From an uncultured virus (IMG/VR IMGVR_UViG_3300020048_000097) (lineage: Duplodnaviria > Heunggongvirae > Uroviricota > Caudoviricetes), in IMG/VR virus record IMGVR_UViG_3300020048_000097: a stretch of 64,000 bases of DNA, one strand, 5' to 3'. This document shows positions 1-18,682 of this stretch, in pieces (the first letter of the stretch is position 1; the number at the start of each line of letters is the position of its first letter). The translations under genes were made by a program, and so were the position numbers. Below the pieces are notes generated by a model. It searched no databases, was not told the origin of the DNA, and was given only the letters and a program-made list of their open reading frames with translations.

Positions 1-35
1 ATAAAGTTTTTATTCTCTGTTTTTATTTTATAGTG

Positions 36-68
36 CAAATATACAAAAAAGTTTTCCAATCTACCAAA
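36..68 (-). promoter_or_regulatory. Bacteroidota sigma70-type promoter (-33 TTTG / -7 TATATTTG) for a gene beyond the left edge
   Basis: Minus strand reads TTTG-21 nt-TATATTTG. Shares TTTGGTAGATTG with the promoter at 1537-1568. Confidence 0.7.
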
Positions 69-77
69 TTTATTTTG

Positions 78-104
78 AGCAGATACCCGGATTTGAACCG
101 GGAT
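78..104 (-). pseudogene. tRNA 3'-half remnant (T-arm plus acceptor 3' strand, U discriminator)
   Basis: Minus strand CCCGG-TTCAAAT-CCGGG-TATCTGC-T-CAA. No matching 5' half or anticodon arm upstream. Confidence 0.6.
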
Positions 105-148
105 TTTTTATTTATATATTAATTTTTATAACTTCAAAAGTGCCACGG

Positions 149-218
149 TACCGTATGTGAGGTTCGAACTCACTTAACATCGGATATGAGCCAATGTCCT
201 TTTCCGCTAAGCTACGGC
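149..218 (-). tRNA. tRNA with CAU anticodon (Met or Ile2), atypical D-arm
   Basis: Anticodon arm ATTGG-CTCATAT-CCGAT, T-arm GTGAG-TTCGAAC-CTCAC, acceptor GCCGTAG/ATACGGT with one mismatch. Confidence 0.7.
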
Positions 219-229
219 ATTTATATTTG

Positions 230-302
230 AGCACCTGGAGGGACTTGAACCCCCGTATCTGGGTTTGCAATCCAGTGCCTAAGCCAACTCGACCACAGGT
301 GC
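230..302 (-). tRNA. tRNA-Cys(GCA)
   Basis: Acceptor GCACCTG/CAGGTGC, U73, anticodon loop TTGCAAA, TTCAAGT T-loop. Confidence 0.9.
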
Positions 303-313
303 ATATATTTTAG

Positions 314-384
314 AGCATCCTACCAGATTCGAACTGGTGTCACTGGGTTACAAATCCAGAATATTACCTCTATACGAAGGATGC
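314..384 (-). tRNA. tRNA-Thr(UGU)
   Basis: Acceptor GCATCCT/AGGATGC, anticodon loop TTTGTAA, TTCGAAT T-loop. Confidence 0.85.
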
Positions 385-393
385 GTTTTATTG

Positions 394-467
394 TTGGAAT
401 AGTAAGACTCGAACTTACGACCTATCGCGTATCAGGCGATTGCTCTAACCAACTGAGCTATATTCCA
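394..467 (-). tRNA. tRNA-Ile(GAU)
   Basis: Canonical D-arm GCTCAGTTGGTTAGAGC, anticodon arm ATCGC-CTGATAC-GCGAT. Confidence 0.92.
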
Positions 468-473
468 ATTTAG

Positions 474-561
474 TACAGAAGGTGGGACTCGAACCCACAC
501 GCTATCTTTTCAAGCACCAGCTTCTAAGGCTGGGGTGTCTCGCCAATTCCACCACTCCTGC
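474..561 (-). tRNA. tRNA-Leu(UAG)
   Basis: Class II body with long variable arm, anticodon arm CCAGC-CTTAGAA-GCTGG, A73. Confidence 0.92.
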
Positions 562-568
562 ATTTTAG

Positions 569-641
569 TAGTCCTACCGGGATTCGAACCCAGACGATAC
601 GCTTAGAAGGCGTAGATGCTATCCAGTTACATCATAGAACC
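569..641 (-). tRNA. tRNA-Arg(UCU)
   Basis: Anticodon arm TACGC-CTTCTAA-GCGTA, TTCGAAT T-loop. Confidence 0.9.
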
Positions 642-648
642 ATTTTTG

Positions 649-732
649 TCGGTAGGGTGGGATTTGAACCCACGTCACACTTTCGTGTCCAGTGTATCAG
701 ACTGGTTCCTGAAACCGCTCGGATACCTACCG
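649..732 (-). tRNA. tRNA with Ile anticodon (GAU) on a class II, long-variable-arm body
   Basis: Acceptor CGGTAGG/CCTACCG, anticodon arm CCAGT-CTGATAC-ACTGG, variable arm ACAC-GAAA-GTGT, T-arm GTGGG-TTCAAAT-CCCAC. Confidence 0.8.
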
Positions 733-741
733 TTATTTTTG

Positions 742-813
742 CTGGGTTGGCCGGACTCGAACCGGCATCATTCTACTTAACAGGTAGAAGTTTTACATTA
801 CTACTACAACCCA
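742..813 (-). tRNA. tRNA-Asn(GUU), divergent D-arm
   Basis: Acceptor TGGGTTG/CAACCCA, G73, anticodon arm TCTAC-CTGTTAA-GTAGA. D-loop lacks GG. Confidence 0.8.
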
Positions 814-819
814 ATGTTG

Positions 820-892
820 CGGACTATGCAGGTTACGATCCTGCCACCCCCTGATTAACAGTCAGGTGCTCTACCAATTGAGCTAATAGTCC
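820..892 (-). tRNA. tRNA-Asn(GUU), ATCGTAA T-loop
   Basis: Acceptor GGACTAT/ATAGTCC, G73, anticodon arm CCTGA-CTGTTAA-TCAGG. Confidence 0.88.
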
Positions 893-904
893 TTCTTTCT
901 TTTG

Positions 905-978
905 CTCCTCCGACAGGATTCGAACCTGTAACCTTCCGCTTAACAGGCGGTTGCTCTGACCGTTATAGCTACGGAGGA
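905..978 (-). tRNA. tRNA-Asn(GUU), canonical type
   Basis: Acceptor TCCTCCG/CGGAGGA, G73, anticodon loop CTGTTAA. Confidence 0.92.
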
Positions 979-990
979 ATGTATGTAAAT

Positions 991-1022
991 AAAAAAACCC
1001 TCAGATTTTTGTCTGAGGGTTT
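991..1022 (-). terminator. Intrinsic terminator (candidate attenuator) directly upstream of the tRNA array
   Basis: Minus strand AAACCCTCAGA-CAAAAA-TCTGAGGGTTTTTTT: 11-bp stem ending in a 7-U tract, 12 nt before the first tRNA-Asn. Confidence 0.85.
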
Positions 1023-1046
1023 CAATGTTTTTTTAGTATAATGCCA

Positions 1047-1160
1047 TTACGCAATATCCTTAAACAGATCGAAACCCTCGCTTGGTCTAATACATAACGT
1101 ATTATTCACCACCATATTCAGCGTGTTATTCAAATTCATATTTAAGTTAATTGTTCTCAT
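1047..1160 (-). CDS. Putative attenuator leader peptide MRTINLNMNLNNTLNMVVNNTLCIRPSEGFDLFKDIA (37 aa)
   Basis: Translated by hand (too short for the ORF track). A-rich upstream region with A at -3, 8 Asn codons, and GAGGGTTTCGAT complementary to the terminator 5' arm. Confidence 0.75.
   Translation of the reverse strand: MRTINLNMNLNNTLNMVVNNTLCIRPSEGFDLFKDIA
1068..1079 (-). promoter_or_regulatory. Antiterminator segment
   Basis: GAGGGTTTCGAT can pair with ATTGAAACCCTC (1026->1015): 12 bp with one G-U. This is mutually exclusive with the terminator stem. Confidence 0.7.
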
Positions 1161-1200
1161 TATTTCTAAATTTTTAAATGTTGTTTTTAATCTTTTTTAG

Positions 1201-1273
<73 letters not shown>

Positions 1274-1282
1274 ATATGTCTT

Positions 1283-1291
1283 TATATATTA
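1283..1291 (-). promoter_or_regulatory. TAATATATA putative phage (late-type) promoter driving fMet, leader and tRNA array
   Basis: Same motif precedes many structural and motif-bearing genes in the window. Confidence 0.55.
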
Positions 1292-1365
1292 AAAAGGATT
1301 TCTCCCTTTTGTCATTTTCTTTATATTTTATTCAAATTTATTAAAAAAGTTTTAATTATTTGCAT

Positions 1366-5536: not shown

Positions 5537-6503
5537 ATGTTAAAAGACGATCCAAAAACAATAAAAGAACAATGGGGTATTGATCCATTAGAAGGAGTTC
5601 AATTAAATGATATTCAACAAACTTTGTTAGATGAATCATTGGGTAATGCACAATCAATGAGAACTGAAAAAAGTGTAAGTATGGAGTTAGAGAATAAATA
5701 TAAAGGTTCTTTCGATCAGTGTGATTCACTTATAAATGGATTAAGTGGTGATTTAAAAAAGAAATTGCTTAGTAATGTTTATATAAATGAAAACCCAAAG
5801 TGGCATCCAGAGAGAAACTCATTAATTCATATTAAAATTGTTATGAGTAGAGGTATCGAAACAGGTGATAAAGATTTAGAACAAGCTGCGCTTTATCACG
5901 ATATAGCAAAATTTGATACCGTTTCTTTTAATAAAGAAGGATGGCCAACATGTTTAGGACATGATTCTGCAGGTGCAGCATTGGTTAGTGATCCTATGAT
6001 TAAATATATATGTGCAAAACATATGGTTATTAAAGGGTGGCAAGGTGCATCAGAAGCAGGTGAATTAACTCCTAAAACTAAATTTAAGATATTTTCGGAA
6101 GCCCCTGGTGATGATAATAATGAAAAAGCAAAAGCATTTTGGAAACTATGTGTGTTCACTAAAATGGATAATATGTCTTATGACTTCAATTATGAATCAC
6201 TTAAATGGGATAATCCATCTTATGACAAATGGGATGAAGAATGTCCACTTAAAGAACAATTTAAAAAGGCTGAATTAGTTCAAATAGTTGAGGAAAAACC
6301 NNNNNNNNNNTACATCACAAGAACTTATGAAAATGGGTGCAAAACCTGGACCAGATCTTGGTAAGATGATAGGTGCTATAACTGGTAAAACTCCAGAAGA
6401 AGCGAAAGTTATATTAAGCGATCAATTTGGATTAACTGTTGAAAAATTATCAACTAAAAGTTATATAAAAATGTTTGAACAATTTAGAAATGGTTTAAAA
6501 TAA
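5537..6503 (+). CDS. HD-domain phosphohydrolase resembling the C-terminal half of CCA-adding enzymes (one gene across the N gap at 6301-6310)
   Basis: WHPE..H, AALYHDIAK and GH..AGA motifs, then after the gap ELMKMGAKPGPDLGK. Confidence 0.7.
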
Positions 6504-9105: not shown

Positions 9106-10009
9106 ATTTGGTAATTATTATTTTCGTCGTCCATTTCAGGATCAAAGCTATCTTTATTTGTATCAAGAAACTTAAAATTATCGGTTGTTATTCTAAATTT
9201 AGAATCCCATCTATTAAAGAATTCAACTAATTTTTTAATAGAATCACTTGTAAAAGAAAACATAGTTTCTGGATCTACAATAGACTTAGAACCTGTGTAA
9301 TCATGAGTTTCAACTATATTAGNNNNNNNNNNTTAAATGATGATACTACCGCATCACCATATGTTATATCAACATTTAATGATAAATTATCAGGGTTTGC
9401 CTGAGTTCCATCGTTATCCTTAAGTATATGAATATCGAATTCTAAATTATCTGGTTCACCATCTGCTAAGACATCATTATCTTCTTTATTTGGTGTGTTT
9501 TGTGAATATATTATTGATATTTTAAGTGGATCAACCGAAAGGTCACCTGAACCATATTTTTTACCTGGTTCTGCATTTAGTCCTGATTCCATTTCTTTCT
9601 TTTCTTCTTTACTTAATCCTAAATTAAGAGTCCAAGTTTTTGGTTGAGAATCTACACCTTTAGTATGAATAATTTGTAATTGTTTTGGTAATAATTCGAA
9701 TAGACGCTTTTCATCAAACATAGATATTCTACCATTTTCTTCTTTAAAATCATCTGGATCGTTCTCTGAAAGATTATTAAATTCTTCGTATAGTTTTAAA
9801 TACTTCATACTACTATATATTATTTCCTCGTTTGCTTTTTTAGAGATTCTAAATTTAAGCAAAGGTTTACCATTTATAGTAATATCTCCTTTTGCATTTT
9901 TACCTATTTTTTTAACAACTACTTTTTTATTCTTAAATCTTCCTCCAAGAATAGTGTCACCAACTTCAATAGGTATTCTAATATCTTCAAACTTTTTTAA
10001 ATTTTTCAT
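9102..10009 (-). CDS. Hypothetical protein spanning the N gap at 9323-9332, with a second in-frame start at 9808
   Basis: An open frame continues after the gap (NIVETHDYTGSK...YQI) to a TGA overlapping the next ATG. Contains two MKxLKxxE motifs. Confidence 0.65.
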
Positions 10010-17053: not shown

Positions 17054-18682
17054 TTATTTATTAATGAATTTCTCAAATTTTGCAATAACTATTTTATTGT
17101 CGTTATCTATTTGAATTTCATTTGGCTTCATTCCTTTATCTAAACCTGCTTTAACGAATTCATCTCTTGATACACCTCTTGTATTACCATCTTTGTCTTT
17201 TATATGATAATCATAACTTTCATTTTTTGTCATTATGTTACCGAATTTATCTATTTTAGTAACATCACTTGCTCCTAAAACTTTATTATTCATTTCGGGT
17301 TCTTTACCTTTATATTCTTGTTTTTCTGACCATTTTAAAGAAAGACTAAATTTAACTCCTGATAAATCGTTTATTATTTTGTTTTTAAACATATCGATAA
17401 ATCTAAGTCCTGCGTAAGGTGCTTTTTCACAAGTTCCGAAAACATTAGATATAGATCCAATTCCACCGTGTCCACCTGAAACGGTAATCTCATCTTGTCC
17501 AACTGTTGTGTCTGGATCATAGTAATCAAGGTGTGCTTTAAAGTTGTTTAATAATCCTGTCATATAGTGACCTAAATCATCTATTTGTTTACCGTCTTTA
17601 CCTACTGGTAAGTTTTCAGTTTCTGCTATTTTCTTATATGCACATACTTGAAGAGTGCCACCATATTGAAGTAGAATGAATTTAGGCTCAGAATCTAATT
17701 TACCATCGTTAAAATCTTTTTCAACAATTGTTCTTGCTCTAAGAGCATTGGCCCAAGTTCCAGTTGGTATAAATACTAGATCACCTATTTTGATGTAACC
17801 TTTCATTCTAANNNNNNNNNNCATTCTAATTAAACCACCTTGCACATATTTTTGAACGAATTCATCTTGTGAGTTTATTGTAGTTCTAAAATATTCACCT
17901 TCTCTTACTCTTCTTTGCATCTCTTTTAGTCTCCACTCAGAGTCTTTTAGAAAGTCTTTCTTTTGTCCTGCGTTTATATTATGTTCAGGATATATTTTTC
18001 TCATAGAATTGAATATAGCATATATAGACACATCTTGACAATTATCAATAACTGATATTAAAGTTTTGTGATCAGATCTTTTTAAGAATTGATTAAAAGA
18101 AGCTGCGAATTCAAGTCTTTTCTTTTTTGACTTCTTAATAGCAGATAAGTCGAAGTCTAAAAGTCTTTGCCAATCAACTCCGTGTTCTTGGTATTTAGCA
18201 GCATCGATCATATCAATAACTGATAAAGTAAGTTCATCTTGTGGTAATCCTAATACAATACACAATGCTTCATATGCAGATGATGTATCTAATTTCTTAA
18301 CTGGTGAGCCTTTATATTTCTCTAAATCCTCTTCGCTGAATAAACCGTGATGATCTAGATAGTAATCAATATTTTGATCTCTTTCGTCACCTGGCATATT
18401 TGCAAAGTCAAGAGCAATATTTATTAATTTAGGATCAAGTGTTGTGTATTTCCAACCATCGGTGTAATTAATGATACCATACTTAACGATTTCAAATCCT
18501 CTATTAAGTAGCCATTTTTTCATCTCAATAGCACAGAATATACCATCCATATCATCATGAGTGTATAAAGCAACTTTCTTACCTTCTTTACCTTTTTTAA
18601 TCCAGTATTCTTCACTAGTTGATGGTGTTCTTAGTGCGCCTTCGTTTACTATTGACCAATTGTTGAATTTATCTACTCTCAT
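17054..18682 (-). CDS. DHH/DHHA1-type phosphoesterase
   Basis: YTHDDMDG, LDF, LDHH and SGGH motifs. N gap at 17812-17821. Confidence 0.7.
   Translation of the reverse strand: MRVDKFNNWSIVNEGALRTPSTSEEYWIKKGKEGKKVALYTHDDMDGIFCAIEMKKWLLNRGFEIVKYGIINYTDGWKYTTLDPKLINIALDFANMPGDERDQNIDYYLDHHGLFSEEDLEKYKGSPVKKLDTSSAYEALCIVLGLPQDELTLSVIDMIDAAKYQEHGVDWQRLLDFDLSAIKKSKKKRLEFAASFNQFLKRSDHKTLISVIDNCQDVSIYAIFNSMRKIYPEHNINAGQKKDFLKDSEWRLKEMQRRVREGEYFRTTINSQDEFVQKYVQGGLIRMXXXXRMKGYIKIGDLVFIPTGTWANALRARTIVEKDFNDGKLDSEPKFILLQYGGTLQVCAYKKIAETENLPVGKDGKQIDDLGHYMTGLLNNFKAHLDYYDPDTTVGQDEITVSGGHGGIGSISNVFGTCEKAPYAGLRFIDMFKNKIINDLSGVKFSLSLKWSEKQEYKGKEPEMNNKVLGASDVTKIDKFGNIMTKNESYDYHIKDKDGNTRGVSRDEFVKAGLDKGMKPNEIQIDNDNKIVIAKFEKFINK

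What the first reader, a model, noticed from the sequence alone, without database searches (positions are those of the whole stretch)
1086..1160. Leader codons mirror the downstream tRNA set (multi-tRNA sensor)
Codons 1-25 are ATG AGA ACA ATT AAC TTA AAT ATG AAT TTG AAT AAC ACG CTG AAT ATG GTG GTG AAT AAT ACG TTA TGT ATT AGA. Twenty of the 25 are readable by tRNAs of this locus (Asn 8, Met 3, Thr 3, Ile 2, Arg-AGA 2, Leu-CTG 1, Cys 1; Met assumes the CAU tRNA at 149-218 is not Ile2). All seven specificities in the array are represented, and the most frequent codon type (Asn) matches the tRNA present in three copies. Only 2 of the last 12 codons match. Lys, very common in this genome's proteins, is absent from the first 25 codons, and there is no tRNA-Lys in the array. 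Eighteen of the 25 are ANN codons, the class decoded by t6A37-modified tRNAs, so the sensed stress might hit that class (inference).
Basis: partly seen in the sequence, partly recalled or inferred. Interest (0 to 1): 0.85.

Follow-up and report, generated by a model that had tools for sequence, protein, structure and literature searches.

The report
Leader-peptide attenuator gating phage tRNA genes
A tiny translated test gene, written in the codons read by the phage tRNA genes just downstream and wired to a switchable transcription stop, probably turns those tRNA genes on when ribosomes decode these codons slowly.

Summary
The minus-strand ORF 1160-1047 has 20 of its first 25 codons readable by tRNAs of the locus. 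The next best of 175 short ORFs in the window scores 13.

Six related phage records, among them two uncultured phages of 634 and 642 kb, carry seven classes of such leaders. I label the classes by their dominant amino acids: N (the window's Asn-rich type), KHFW, SR, YE, IGA, PD and Q. Each class is spelled in the codons of the tRNA sub-array behind it, and the true leader/array pairing is the best of 5,040 permutations in both large phages.

Every leader is followed by a hairpin plus T-run. An upstream strand, placed just after the matching codons, is complementary to the 5' arm of that hairpin. Both helices show compensatory changes in 43 aligned relatives.

The best reading is ribosome-mediated transcription attenuation giving negative feedback on tRNA supply. 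Nothing here is experimental. A simple ribosome-footprint model does not explain the off state for this leader type.

Five literature searches found no description of this control for tRNA genes. This scan has noted similar elements on other DNA.

The parts
1333..1340 (-). Promoter-like -7 box TAAATTTG (weak; no clear -33 TTTG)
   Evidence: Read. It resembles the TTTG..TAnnTTTG boxes seen before most other leaders. The consensus is recalled from the literature on Bacteroidetes promoters and was not tested.
1282..1310 (-). Conserved motif AAAAGGGAGAAATCCTTTTTAATATATAA, function unknown
   Evidence: The same motif lies between the promoter and the ATG of most promoter-proximal leaders. It also lies before the tRNA-Met of LR745206.1.
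1200..1273 (-). tRNA-Met (CAT), initiator-like, upstream of and so outside the attenuator
   Evidence: Called. The anticodon stem ends in GGG/CCC and positions 1/72 are T x T (read; the initiator hallmarks are recalled). The same layout is seen in L219, L230, L232, L256, L272 and in L203.
1047..1160 (-). Leader ORF, 37 codons plus stop
   Evidence: An ATG-to-stop frame is kept in 63 of 63 related loci.
1086..1157 (-). Regulatory codons 2-25 (Asn x8, Thr x3, Ile x2, Arg-AGA x2, Met x2, Leu x4, Val x2, Cys x1)
   Evidence: In relatives, 436 of 508 such codons are readable by the array behind them, against 79 of 295 tail codons.
1068..1079 (-). Upstream strand of the antiterminator, GAGGGTTTCGAT (codons 28-31)
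   Evidence: Duplex of -18.8 kcal/mol with the terminator 5' arm. 1 of 300 shuffles was as good. Covariation.
1015..1026 (-). Downstream strand of the antiterminator, ATTGAAACCCTC; it overlaps the terminator 5' arm
   Evidence: Pairs 21-96, 22-95 and 23-94 covary, and columns 93-95 lie outside the terminator stem.
991..1023 (-). Intrinsic terminator: 12-bp stem (1023-1012 with 1005-994), loop CAAAAA, T-run to 991
   Evidence: -17.2 kcal/mol. 98.2% of cells are paired in 43 relatives, with 6 covarying pairs.
229..978 (-). Gated array of nine tRNA genes: Asn x3, long-arm Ile-GAT, Arg-TCT, Leu-TAG, Ile-GAT, Thr-TGT, Cys-GCA
149..218 (-). tRNA-like sequence with CAU anticodon, sub-threshold
   Evidence: 24 bits, gathering score 29. 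Its homologue in L256 is called tRNA-Met.
1..67 (-). Next promoter (TTTG..TATATTTG) and the start of the conserved motif, running out of the window; probably the next leader/array unit
   Evidence: Read, compared.

Best explanation
The ORF 1160-1047 is the leader peptide of a ribosome-mediated transcription attenuator that gates a phage tRNA array.

**Layout.** Transcription enters from upstream, passing an initiator-like tRNA-Met at 1273-1200. It then meets the leader, an intrinsic terminator (1023-991) and the array (978-229).

**Switch (inferred).**
- On state: a ribosome stalls on codons 2 to about 22 because charged Asn, Thr, Ile, Arg(AGA), Leu, Val or Met tRNA is scarce, or no ribosome loads at all. 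The strand GAGGGTTTCGAT (1079-1068) then pairs with ATTGAAACCCTC (1026-1015). The terminator cannot form and RNA polymerase runs into the tRNA genes.
- Off state: the ribosome reads the leader smoothly and occupies or separates these strands. The terminator forms and the array is not transcribed.

Because the products are the tRNAs that read the test codons, this is direct negative feedback on decoding capacity.

**Wider pattern.** Related huge phages use seven such units, one per sub-array. I label them by dominant amino acids: N, KHFW, SR, YE, IGA, PD and Q.

**Shown by computation:** the anatomy, the codon/anticodon covariation, and the covariation of both helices.
**Inferred:** translation of the ORF, the stalling, the direction of the switch and the physiological trigger.
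For: 1. **Codon match.** 20 of the first 25 codons match. The matched set has frequency 0.20 in long ORFs of the window. This is the top of 175 short ORFs; the next best scores 13.
2. **Covariation across classes.** I curated 24 leaders from 7 phage records into seven classes, each followed by the matching tRNAs.
   - Examples: MTTSFQQQQQQQINRTD precedes four tRNA-Gln. MKTTHKIEAIGYAYEAG.. precedes Tyr, Glu, Ile-TAT, Gly and Ala. MRTINKHKHFSKSSKWFS.. precedes Lys, His, Phe and Trp.
   - The match holds at codon level. Ile is ATA in front of Ile-TAT arrays and ATT in front of Ile-GAT arrays. Arg is AGA in front of Arg-TCT and CGC in front of Arg-ACG.
   - The identity pairing of 7 leaders with 7 arrays is the single best of 5,040 permutations in LR745206.1 and again in LR756502.1.
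   - Matching codons lie before the antiterminator strand: 207 of 456 there against 37 of 227 in the tail. The same zones scored against other non-N arrays of the same phage give 44 of 1,269.
3. **Selection on composition rather than sequence.**
   - In 34 distinct N-type ORFs, codons 2 through Cys-Ile-Arg use only N, L, T, M, V, I, R and C in 740 of 752 positions. 436 of 508 are readable by the array behind, against 79 of 295 tail codons.
   - Rare codons are preferred: ACG is 45 of 121 Thr codons and GTG 58 of 62 Val codons, against 4% each in long ORFs of the window.
   - The frame is kept in 63 of 63 loci.
4. **Terminator.** 24 of 24 leaders, and 51 of 51 distinct N-type relatives, have a hairpin plus T-run 14-37 nt after the stop codon. 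In 43 aligned sequences 98.2% of cells are paired and 6 pairs change on both sides; 0 of 500 shuffles reach this.
5. **Antiterminator.**
   - The upstream complement is better than 95% of shuffles in 17 of 24 leaders and in 51 of 51 N-type relatives.
   - Own pairs average -13.3 kcal/mol against -8.7 for other-class pairs; 0 of 10,000 permutations are as low.
   - On the alignment, 10 of 15 pairs change on both sides (46 cells). The covariation score is 0.221, against 0.100 or less when the partner is slid, and 0 of 500 shuffles reach it. Covarying pairs include ones outside the terminator stem.
6. **Folding of the nascent RNA.** With a ribosome stalled on matching codons, the antiterminator is in the minimum-energy structure for 22 of 24 leaders, including the window's with 12 bp.
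7. **Negative control.** Lone tRNA genes in the two huge phages (L205-L209) have no such leader.
8. **Weak hint of co-transcription.** One contig from an RNA library (run X19, a relative) bridges window 815-1254, covering tRNA-Met, the leader, the terminator and two tRNA-Asn. DNA carry-over is not excluded.
Against: - **No experiment.** Translation, termination and read-through were not observed. The sequencing runs are held only as contigs and cannot show RNA ends.
- **The off state is not explained by simple masking.** With a -15/+14 nt footprint at the stop codon, the antiterminator helix of at least 6 bp survives in 11 of 24 leaders. The window's is one of them, with 12 bp; its strand ends 18 nt before the stop. 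For this class the off state needs steric exclusion or tight coupling, which is inference.
- **No protector hairpin.** Free RNA also forms the antiterminator in 17 of 24 leaders, so there is no trp-like 1:2 protector.
- **Codons 23-25** (Cys, Ile, Arg) lie only 2-4 codons before the strand and may be too close to act as sensors.
- **Unmatched codons.** In this window, 5 of the first 25 codons (Leu TTA/TTG, Val GTG) have no tRNA in the visible array.
- **Some matches are weak by called tRNAs.** The G002 SR leader matches 1 of 24 codons. The PD leaders match 5 of 30 and 5 of 34 (P 0.16-0.22). ARAGORN misses some tRNAs.
- **Some antiterminators are weak.** 7 of 24 are no better than the best 5% of shuffles.
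- **Limits of the controls.** The sequences are related, so the shuffle controls overstate significance. The N-type set was collected with a 19-nt string from the leader, so it is biased toward conserved leaders.
- **Unknown context.** The host and the RNA polymerase that transcribes these units are unknown.
Confidence: 0.8

Rival explanations
1. A translation-dependent switch with a different signal or output. It might act as a general gauge of ribosome availability or as a timer of infection, rather than as a sensor of particular tRNAs. Alternatively it might control processing or stability of the tRNA precursor rather than termination.
For: Free RNA forms the antiterminator in 17 of 24 leaders, so any failure to translate the leader would switch the array on. 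All classes share the N-terminus M-(R/K/T/N)-T-(I/M/T)-N and a common upstream motif.
Against: A general gauge would not need seven codon compositions that track seven arrays at codon level. It would also not need a preference for rare codons read by the array's own tRNAs. The covarying terminator and antiterminator helices point to termination control.
Confidence: 0.1
2. The short ORFs encode functional micropeptides, and the hairpins are ordinary terminators or insulators between transcription units.
For: The ORF is conserved in frame in 63 of 63 loci, with a conserved N-terminus and a conserved NTLCIR segment.
Against: - Within a class the order of residues drifts while the composition is kept. 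The PD, YE and Q leaders of the two huge phages show this.
- The peptides have no PHROG family.
- Composition tracks the neighbouring anticodons.
- The C-terminal part changes freely as long as it stays complementary to the terminator arm, for example SEGF, CSGIA, QSGLV and ASDFV with four different stems.
Confidence: 0.05
3. An RNA-only sensor: the codon runs pair directly with tRNA anticodons, in the manner of a T-box, without translation.
For: Codon content matches the tRNAs, and a terminator/antiterminator pair is present.
Against: - No T-box match was found at the gathering score in the window, or at E up to 1 in 1-1400.
- The start codon, stop codon and reading frame are conserved through indels.
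- There are many different codons per leader rather than one specifier.
Confidence: 0.03
4. Chance or compositional artefact of AT-rich intergenic DNA.
For: The genome has 28.8% G+C, so AAT, ATT and similar codons are common.
Against: The leader is the top of 175 short ORFs by a wide margin. The permutation results and the covariation also argue against chance.
Confidence: 0.01

Closest known systems
Leader-peptide transcription attenuators of amino-acid operons (trpL, hisL, leuL, pheL; the multivalent thrL and ilvL leaders) (knowledge recalled)
   Same: A short ORF enriched in the codons whose decoding is to be sensed. An intrinsic terminator stands before the regulated genes. A mutually exclusive antiterminator has its upstream strand at the ORF end. 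Several amino acids are sensed by one leader, as in thr and ilv.
   Different: - The regulated genes are tRNA genes, so the sensed molecule is the product itself.
- The element is phage-borne.
- Up to seven leaders in one genome divide the tRNA set between them.
- Some leaders sit inside tRNA precursors, directly after a tRNA.
- There is no clear 1:2 protector hairpin.
- In the N class the stop codon lies 9-21 nt beyond the antiterminator strand.
pheM leader attenuator of the pheST (phenylalanyl-tRNA synthetase) operon of E. coli (recalled)
   Same: Leader-peptide attenuation that controls a component of the translation apparatus in response to charged-tRNA supply.
   Different: It controls a synthetase, not tRNA genes. 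It senses a single amino acid and is chromosomal.
T-box riboswitches
   Same: They sense the tRNA state and switch between a terminator and an antiterminator.
   Different: T-boxes bind uncharged tRNA directly, without translation, through one specifier codon and a conserved T-box sequence. No such match was found here.
Rfam Phe_leader (RF01859) and trpB motif (RF04312)
   Same: Weak matches over 989-1110 and 985-1098 on the minus strand, reflecting the layout of a leader plus terminator.
   Different: Scores of 21.8 and 32.8 bits are far below the gathering scores of 55 and 59, so this is not a member of either family.

Membership tests
Ribosome-mediated (leader-peptide) transcription attenuators | Short ORF with start and stop codons upstream of the regulated genes, with the frame conserved | tested here: met
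   37-codon ORF. An ATG-to-stop frame is kept in 63 of 63 related loci.
Ribosome-mediated (leader-peptide) transcription attenuators | Enrichment of codons cognate to what is regulated | tested here: met
   20 of 25 codons match and the ORF is the top of 175 short ORFs. Seven classes covary with their arrays, and the identity pairing is the best of 5,040 permutations in two phages. 436 of 508 regulatory codons match against 79 of 295 tail codons.
Ribosome-mediated (leader-peptide) transcription attenuators | Intrinsic terminator between the leader and the regulated genes | tested here: met
   A 12-bp stem plus a run of 7 T at 1023-991. Present in 24 of 24 leaders and 51 of 51 relatives. Covariation.
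Ribosome-mediated (leader-peptide) transcription attenuators | Antiterminator mutually exclusive with the terminator, its upstream strand downstream of the regulatory codons | tested here: met
   1079-1068 pairs with 1026-1015 at -18.8 kcal/mol. Cross-pair control. 10 of 15 pairs change on both sides.
Ribosome-mediated (leader-peptide) transcription attenuators | A ribosome that reaches the stop codon prevents the antiterminator | tested here: inconclusive
   In a simple footprint model the helix is lost in 13 of 24 leaders but kept in 11, including the window's. A steric argument remains, but it is inference.
Ribosome-mediated (leader-peptide) transcription attenuators | Read-through rises when the cognate charged tRNA is scarce (experimental) | not testable with these tools
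   The public runs are held only as contigs.
Ribosome-mediated (leader-peptide) transcription attenuators | Regulated genes are amino-acid biosynthesis or synthetase genes, as in all described members known to me | tested here: not met
   The downstream genes are nine tRNA genes. I therefore file this as a new variant, not an ordinary member.
Rfam leader families (Phe_leader RF01859, trpB motif RF04312) | Score at or above the gathering score | tested here: not met
   21.8 bits against 55, and 32.8 bits against 59.
T-box riboswitch | Match to the T-box model (specifier loop and T-box sequence) | tested here: not met
   No T-box match at the gathering score in the window, nor at E up to 1 in 1-1400.

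The most novel reading that the evidence does not exclude
Huge phages that infect Bacteroidetes-type hosts carry a modular tRNA homeostat. Up to seven codon-class-specific leader attenuators divide nearly the whole tRNA set between them. Each measures how well its own codons are being decoded and switches on only the matching tRNA sub-array. The phage would then detect and repair selective loss of host tRNAs, for instance from anticodon-nuclease defences or host shut-off, species by species. Rare G-ending codons would serve as the most sensitive probes.
Probability: 0.5. Interest if true: 0.92.

Novelty: new variant of a known kind. Interest (0 to 1): 0.87.

Why it matters
**A gap in knowledge.** How phages regulate their tRNA genes is largely unknown. 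Phage tRNAs are usually discussed only as codon-usage compensation or as a counter to tRNA-cleaving defences. The opinion paper PMC11025619 has no occurrence of 'attenuat', 'leader', 'promoter' or 'terminator' in its main text.

**What the element would be.** A leader-peptide attenuator in front of tRNA genes is a direct product-feedback loop on decoding capacity. It extends a textbook mechanism, known from amino-acid operons, to the translation machinery itself.

**Practical uses.**
- It gives a readable signature, since each leader spells its array. That signature can be used to annotate phage tRNA operons, to predict which tRNAs a phage treats as limiting, and to find unusual tRNAs.
- It offers compact, codon-programmable sensors of tRNA availability for synthetic biology.

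**Testability.** It makes the long-standing question of why and when phages express their tRNAs directly testable with reporters.

Tried and rejected
- No whole genome is held for this window, so genome-wide codon usage was taken from the window's 45 long ORFs.
- A distant search of the phage collection gave only tRNA-level matches and no close relative. It did point to the two huge uncultured phages used later.
- An exact search for the terminator in viral contigs found 0 matches.
- Of 80 loci encoding relatives of the neighbouring 133-aa protein, 3 held a leader homologue (L001, L002, L030). These are the same sequence, so gene neighbourhood was a poor guide.
- Most of the 105 matches to a 16-nt string at the leader start were chance. 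11 were short ORFs followed by tRNAs.
- No PHROG family matches the leader peptide or its two upstream neighbours.
- The scan holds no earlier notes for this genome or for look-alike sequence.
- All four runs that were laid are held as contigs. They cannot show RNA 3' ends, strand or level. Uncovered stretches are not interpretable.
- **t6A37/ANN idea.** Rejected as an organising principle.
- **Artefact of low G+C.** Rejected.
- **Small functional proteins.** Rejected as the main reading.
- **A trp-like 1:2 protector hairpin.** Not supported, because free RNA forms the antiterminator in 17 of 24 leaders.

Full report
**What is there.** The window has 28.8% G+C. It holds phage genes, including baseplate hub and DNA helicase families.

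On the minus strand, from high to low coordinates:
- a tRNA-Met(CAT) at 1273-1200;
- a 37-codon ORF at 1160-1047, MRTINLNMNLNNTLNMVVNNTLCIRPSEGFDLFKDIA;
- a 12-bp hairpin with a run of seven T at 1023-991;
- 12 nt later, nine tRNA genes at 978-229: Asn x3, a long-armed Ile-GAT, Arg-TCT, Leu-TAG, Ile-GAT, Thr-TGT and Cys-GCA.

The tRNA-Met has an anticodon stem ending in GGG/CCC and a T x T at positions 1/72. I read it as initiator-like; those hallmarks are recalled, not tested.

**The observation.** The codon list is exact. 20 of the first 25 codons and 2 of the last 12 are in the set read by the locus tRNAs.
- In 45 long ORFs of the window that set has frequency 0.20. The binomial P for 19 of 24 codons is 9e-10, with the caveat that the 25-codon cut was chosen after the fact.
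Of 175 ATG ORFs of 25-60 codons in all six frames, this one scores 20 and the next best 13.
- The 'CAU tRNA' at 149-218 scores 24 bits against a gathering score of 29. ARAGORN does not call it. Its homologue in L256 is called tRNA-Met.

**Relatives and covariation.** A search by the neighbouring 133-aa protein gave 80 loci. Three of them, identical to each other, held a leader homologue. That contig (L001) has three leaders, each starting MRTI and each followed by a hairpin with a T-run and then a tRNA array:
- MRTINKHKHFSKSSKWFS.. precedes Lys, His, Phe and Trp;
- MRTILNILVSSSRSSSG.. precedes Arg-ACG and Ser;
- the N-type leader precedes Asn, Ile, Arg-TCT, Thr, Leu, Cys and Val.

Pattern searches, and the two uncultured phages LR745206.1 (634,780 bp) and LR756502.1 (642,428 bp), added more. 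In all I curated 24 leaders from 7 phage records into seven classes. The further classes are:
- YE or YEGAI, before Glu, Tyr (and Ile-TAT, Gly, Ala);
- IGA, before Ile-TAT, Gly and Ala;
- PD, before Pro and Asp;
- Q, for example MTTSFQQQQQQQINRTD before four tRNA-Gln.

The match holds at codon level. Ile is ATA before Ile-TAT arrays and ATT before Ile-GAT arrays. Arg is AGA before Arg-TCT and CGC before Arg-ACG. In each of the two huge phages the true pairing of 7 leaders with 7 arrays is the single best of 5,040 permutations.

Matching codons sit before the antiterminator strand (207 of 456) rather than after it (37 of 227). The same zones scored against other non-N arrays of the same phage give 44 of 1,269. 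Lone tRNA genes elsewhere in those phages have no leader.

**The window's own class.** A 19-nt string from the leader found 9 viral and 54 metagenome loci. They give 53 distinct leader-plus-terminator sequences, all followed by Asn/Ile/Arg-TCT/Leu/Val/Thr/Cys arrays wherever the flank reaches. This set is biased toward leaders that keep that string.
- In 34 distinct ORFs, 740 of 752 codons between the start and Cys-Ile-Arg encode only N, L, T, M, V, I, R or C.
- In the 23 ORFs with at least 8 called tRNAs, 436 of 508 of these codons are readable by the array, against 79 of 295 tail codons.
- The leaders prefer rare G-ending codons. ACG is 45 of 121 Thr codons and GTG 58 of 62 Val codons. In long ORFs of the window each is 4% of its family.
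- The five unmatched codons of the window's leader (TTA x2, TTG, GTG x2) are served by Leu-TAA and Val-TAC genes in relatives. In the 90%-identical L232 these follow Cys. In the window the likeness ends near position 148 and these genes are absent.

**The switch.**
- All 24 leaders have a hairpin of -11.8 to -20.3 kcal/mol plus a T-run, 18-33 nt after the stop codon.
- In each leader, a segment just after the matching codons is complementary to the 5' arm of that hairpin. In 17 of 24 leaders, no more than 5% of 300 mononucleotide shuffles do as well.
- Own pairs average -13.3 kcal/mol and other-class pairs -8.7. None of 10,000 permutations is as low.
- In the window the strands are GAGGGTTTCGAT (1079-1068, codons 28-31) and ATTGAAACCCTC (1026-1015).
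- Among N-type relatives, 51 of 51 analysed have both elements. Two were dropped because they lie too near a contig end.
- Where the terminator stem differs (ACCCGAAC, ACCCAGAT, ACCCAGAC, GTCCGAT, ACCCGGAA), the upstream strand differs in step.

On a MAFFT alignment of 43 sequences:
- The antiterminator has 10 of 15 pairs with changes on both sides (46 cells). Its covariation score is 0.221, against 0.100 or less when the partner is slid. 0 of 500 shuffles reach the score. Covarying pairs include three outside the terminator stem.
- The terminator has 98.2% of cells paired and 6 of 12 pairs changed on both sides.

These sequences are related, so the shuffle counts are not probabilities.

**How it most likely works.** This is ribosome-mediated attenuation. 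A ribosome stalled on the test codons leaves the upstream strand free. That strand captures the terminator's 5' arm as it emerges, and polymerase reads into the tRNA genes. A ribosome that runs through prevents this, and the terminator forms.

I folded the nascent RNA, without the 3' arm, under three ribosome masks. The antiterminator is in the minimum-energy structure in:
- 22 of 24 leaders with a ribosome stalled on matching codons;
- 17 of 24 with no ribosome;
- 11 of 24 with a ribosome at the stop codon.

Two points follow. First, failure to translate at all should also switch the array on, so there is no trp-like protector hairpin. Second, for the N class, including this window, simple masking does not explain the off state. 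There the stop codon lies 18 nt beyond the strand. I infer steric exclusion by a ribosome sitting between the two strands, or close coupling. This is the weakest step of the model.

The initiator-like tRNA-Met lies upstream of the attenuator, so it would be made whether or not the array is. That fits its need for translating the leader (inference).

**Expression data.** Of the 20 listed runs that hold at least part of the stretch, 18 are aquatic, freshwater, lake-water or aquaculture metagenomes. One contig from a marine RNA library, from a relative, bridges window 815-1254. This is only a weak hint of co-transcription across the terminator.

**Comparison with the known.** The anatomy is that of trp/his/leu/thr/ilv-type leader attenuators. 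The difference is the target: tRNA genes, which makes the sensed molecule the product.
- Rfam gives only sub-threshold matches to Phe_leader (21.8 against 55 bits) and the trpB motif (32.8 against 59 bits), and no T-box match.
- Five full-text searches (I saw listings and abstract starts only) found no paper describing leader-peptide control of tRNA genes.
- The huge-phage paper PMC7162821 has no occurrence of 'attenuat' or 'leader' in its main text. It states that the genomes over 634 kb are predicted to replicate in Bacteroidetes (passages only; I did not see its supplements). That the two records I used come from that study is my inference from their lengths.
- PMC11025619 likewise has none of 'attenuat', 'leader', 'promoter' or 'terminator' (passages only).

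Earlier notes of this scan describe similar leader-attenuators before tRNA arrays on other DNA, in at least 66 genomes. I reached my reading before looking them up, and I did not test their DNA.

**Verdict.** This is a new variant of a known kind of regulator, unpublished as far as my searches reach, and of high interest. Its mechanism is well supported by comparative computation but untested at the bench.

Noticed in passing
window 648-732 (-); L001 7573-7658: A tRNA with an Ile anticodon (GAT) but a long variable arm (85 nt), beside a normal tRNA-Ile-GAT. It is conserved in relatives, and which synthetase charges it is unclear.
   Followed up: partly
window 1282-1310 (-); also before most leaders in L195-L204: A conserved motif, AAAAGGGAGAAA..TTTTTAATATATAA, lies between the promoter and the leader ATG. 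It also lies directly before tRNA-Met here and in LR745206.1. It could be a phage-specific promoter or start site, a processing site or an operator.
   Followed up: partly
window 1-148 (-): Likeness to the 90%-identical relative L232 ends near position 148. The relative goes on with the Val-GAC, Val-TAC, Leu-TAA, Thr-GGT and Leu-TAG genes. The window instead has a lone T-arm-like hairpin (about 76-110), then a new promoter and the start of the motif at 67-1 running out of the window.
   Followed up: partly
window 1086-1104 (-): AATACGTTATGTATTAGAC is conserved at nucleotide level in 63 loci, including the rare ACG codon. It can form a small AATAC/GTATT hairpin, possibly a polymerase pause site.
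   Followed up: no
L001 5675-5971, 7013-7609, 8045-8731: ORFs with Cys/His-rich HNH-like motifs are inserted between tRNA genes inside the arrays. They are probably homing endonucleases.
   Followed up: no
L001 6771-6859; L200 23399-23485: Some tRNA-Asn genes are 87-89 nt long, which may reflect an intron or insertion. Several Ser-like tRNAs after Arg-ACG (L001 5400-5660) are not called by ARAGORN.
   Followed up: no
leaders of all classes: All seven classes share the N-terminus M-(R/K/T/N)-T-(I/M/T)-N and the start context GAAAT(A/T)ATG. This suggests common descent by duplication or a shared initiation signal.
   Followed up: no
window 6301-6310, 9323-9332, 17812-17821: Three runs of 10 N in the window, either masked stretches or assembly gaps.
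   Followed up: no
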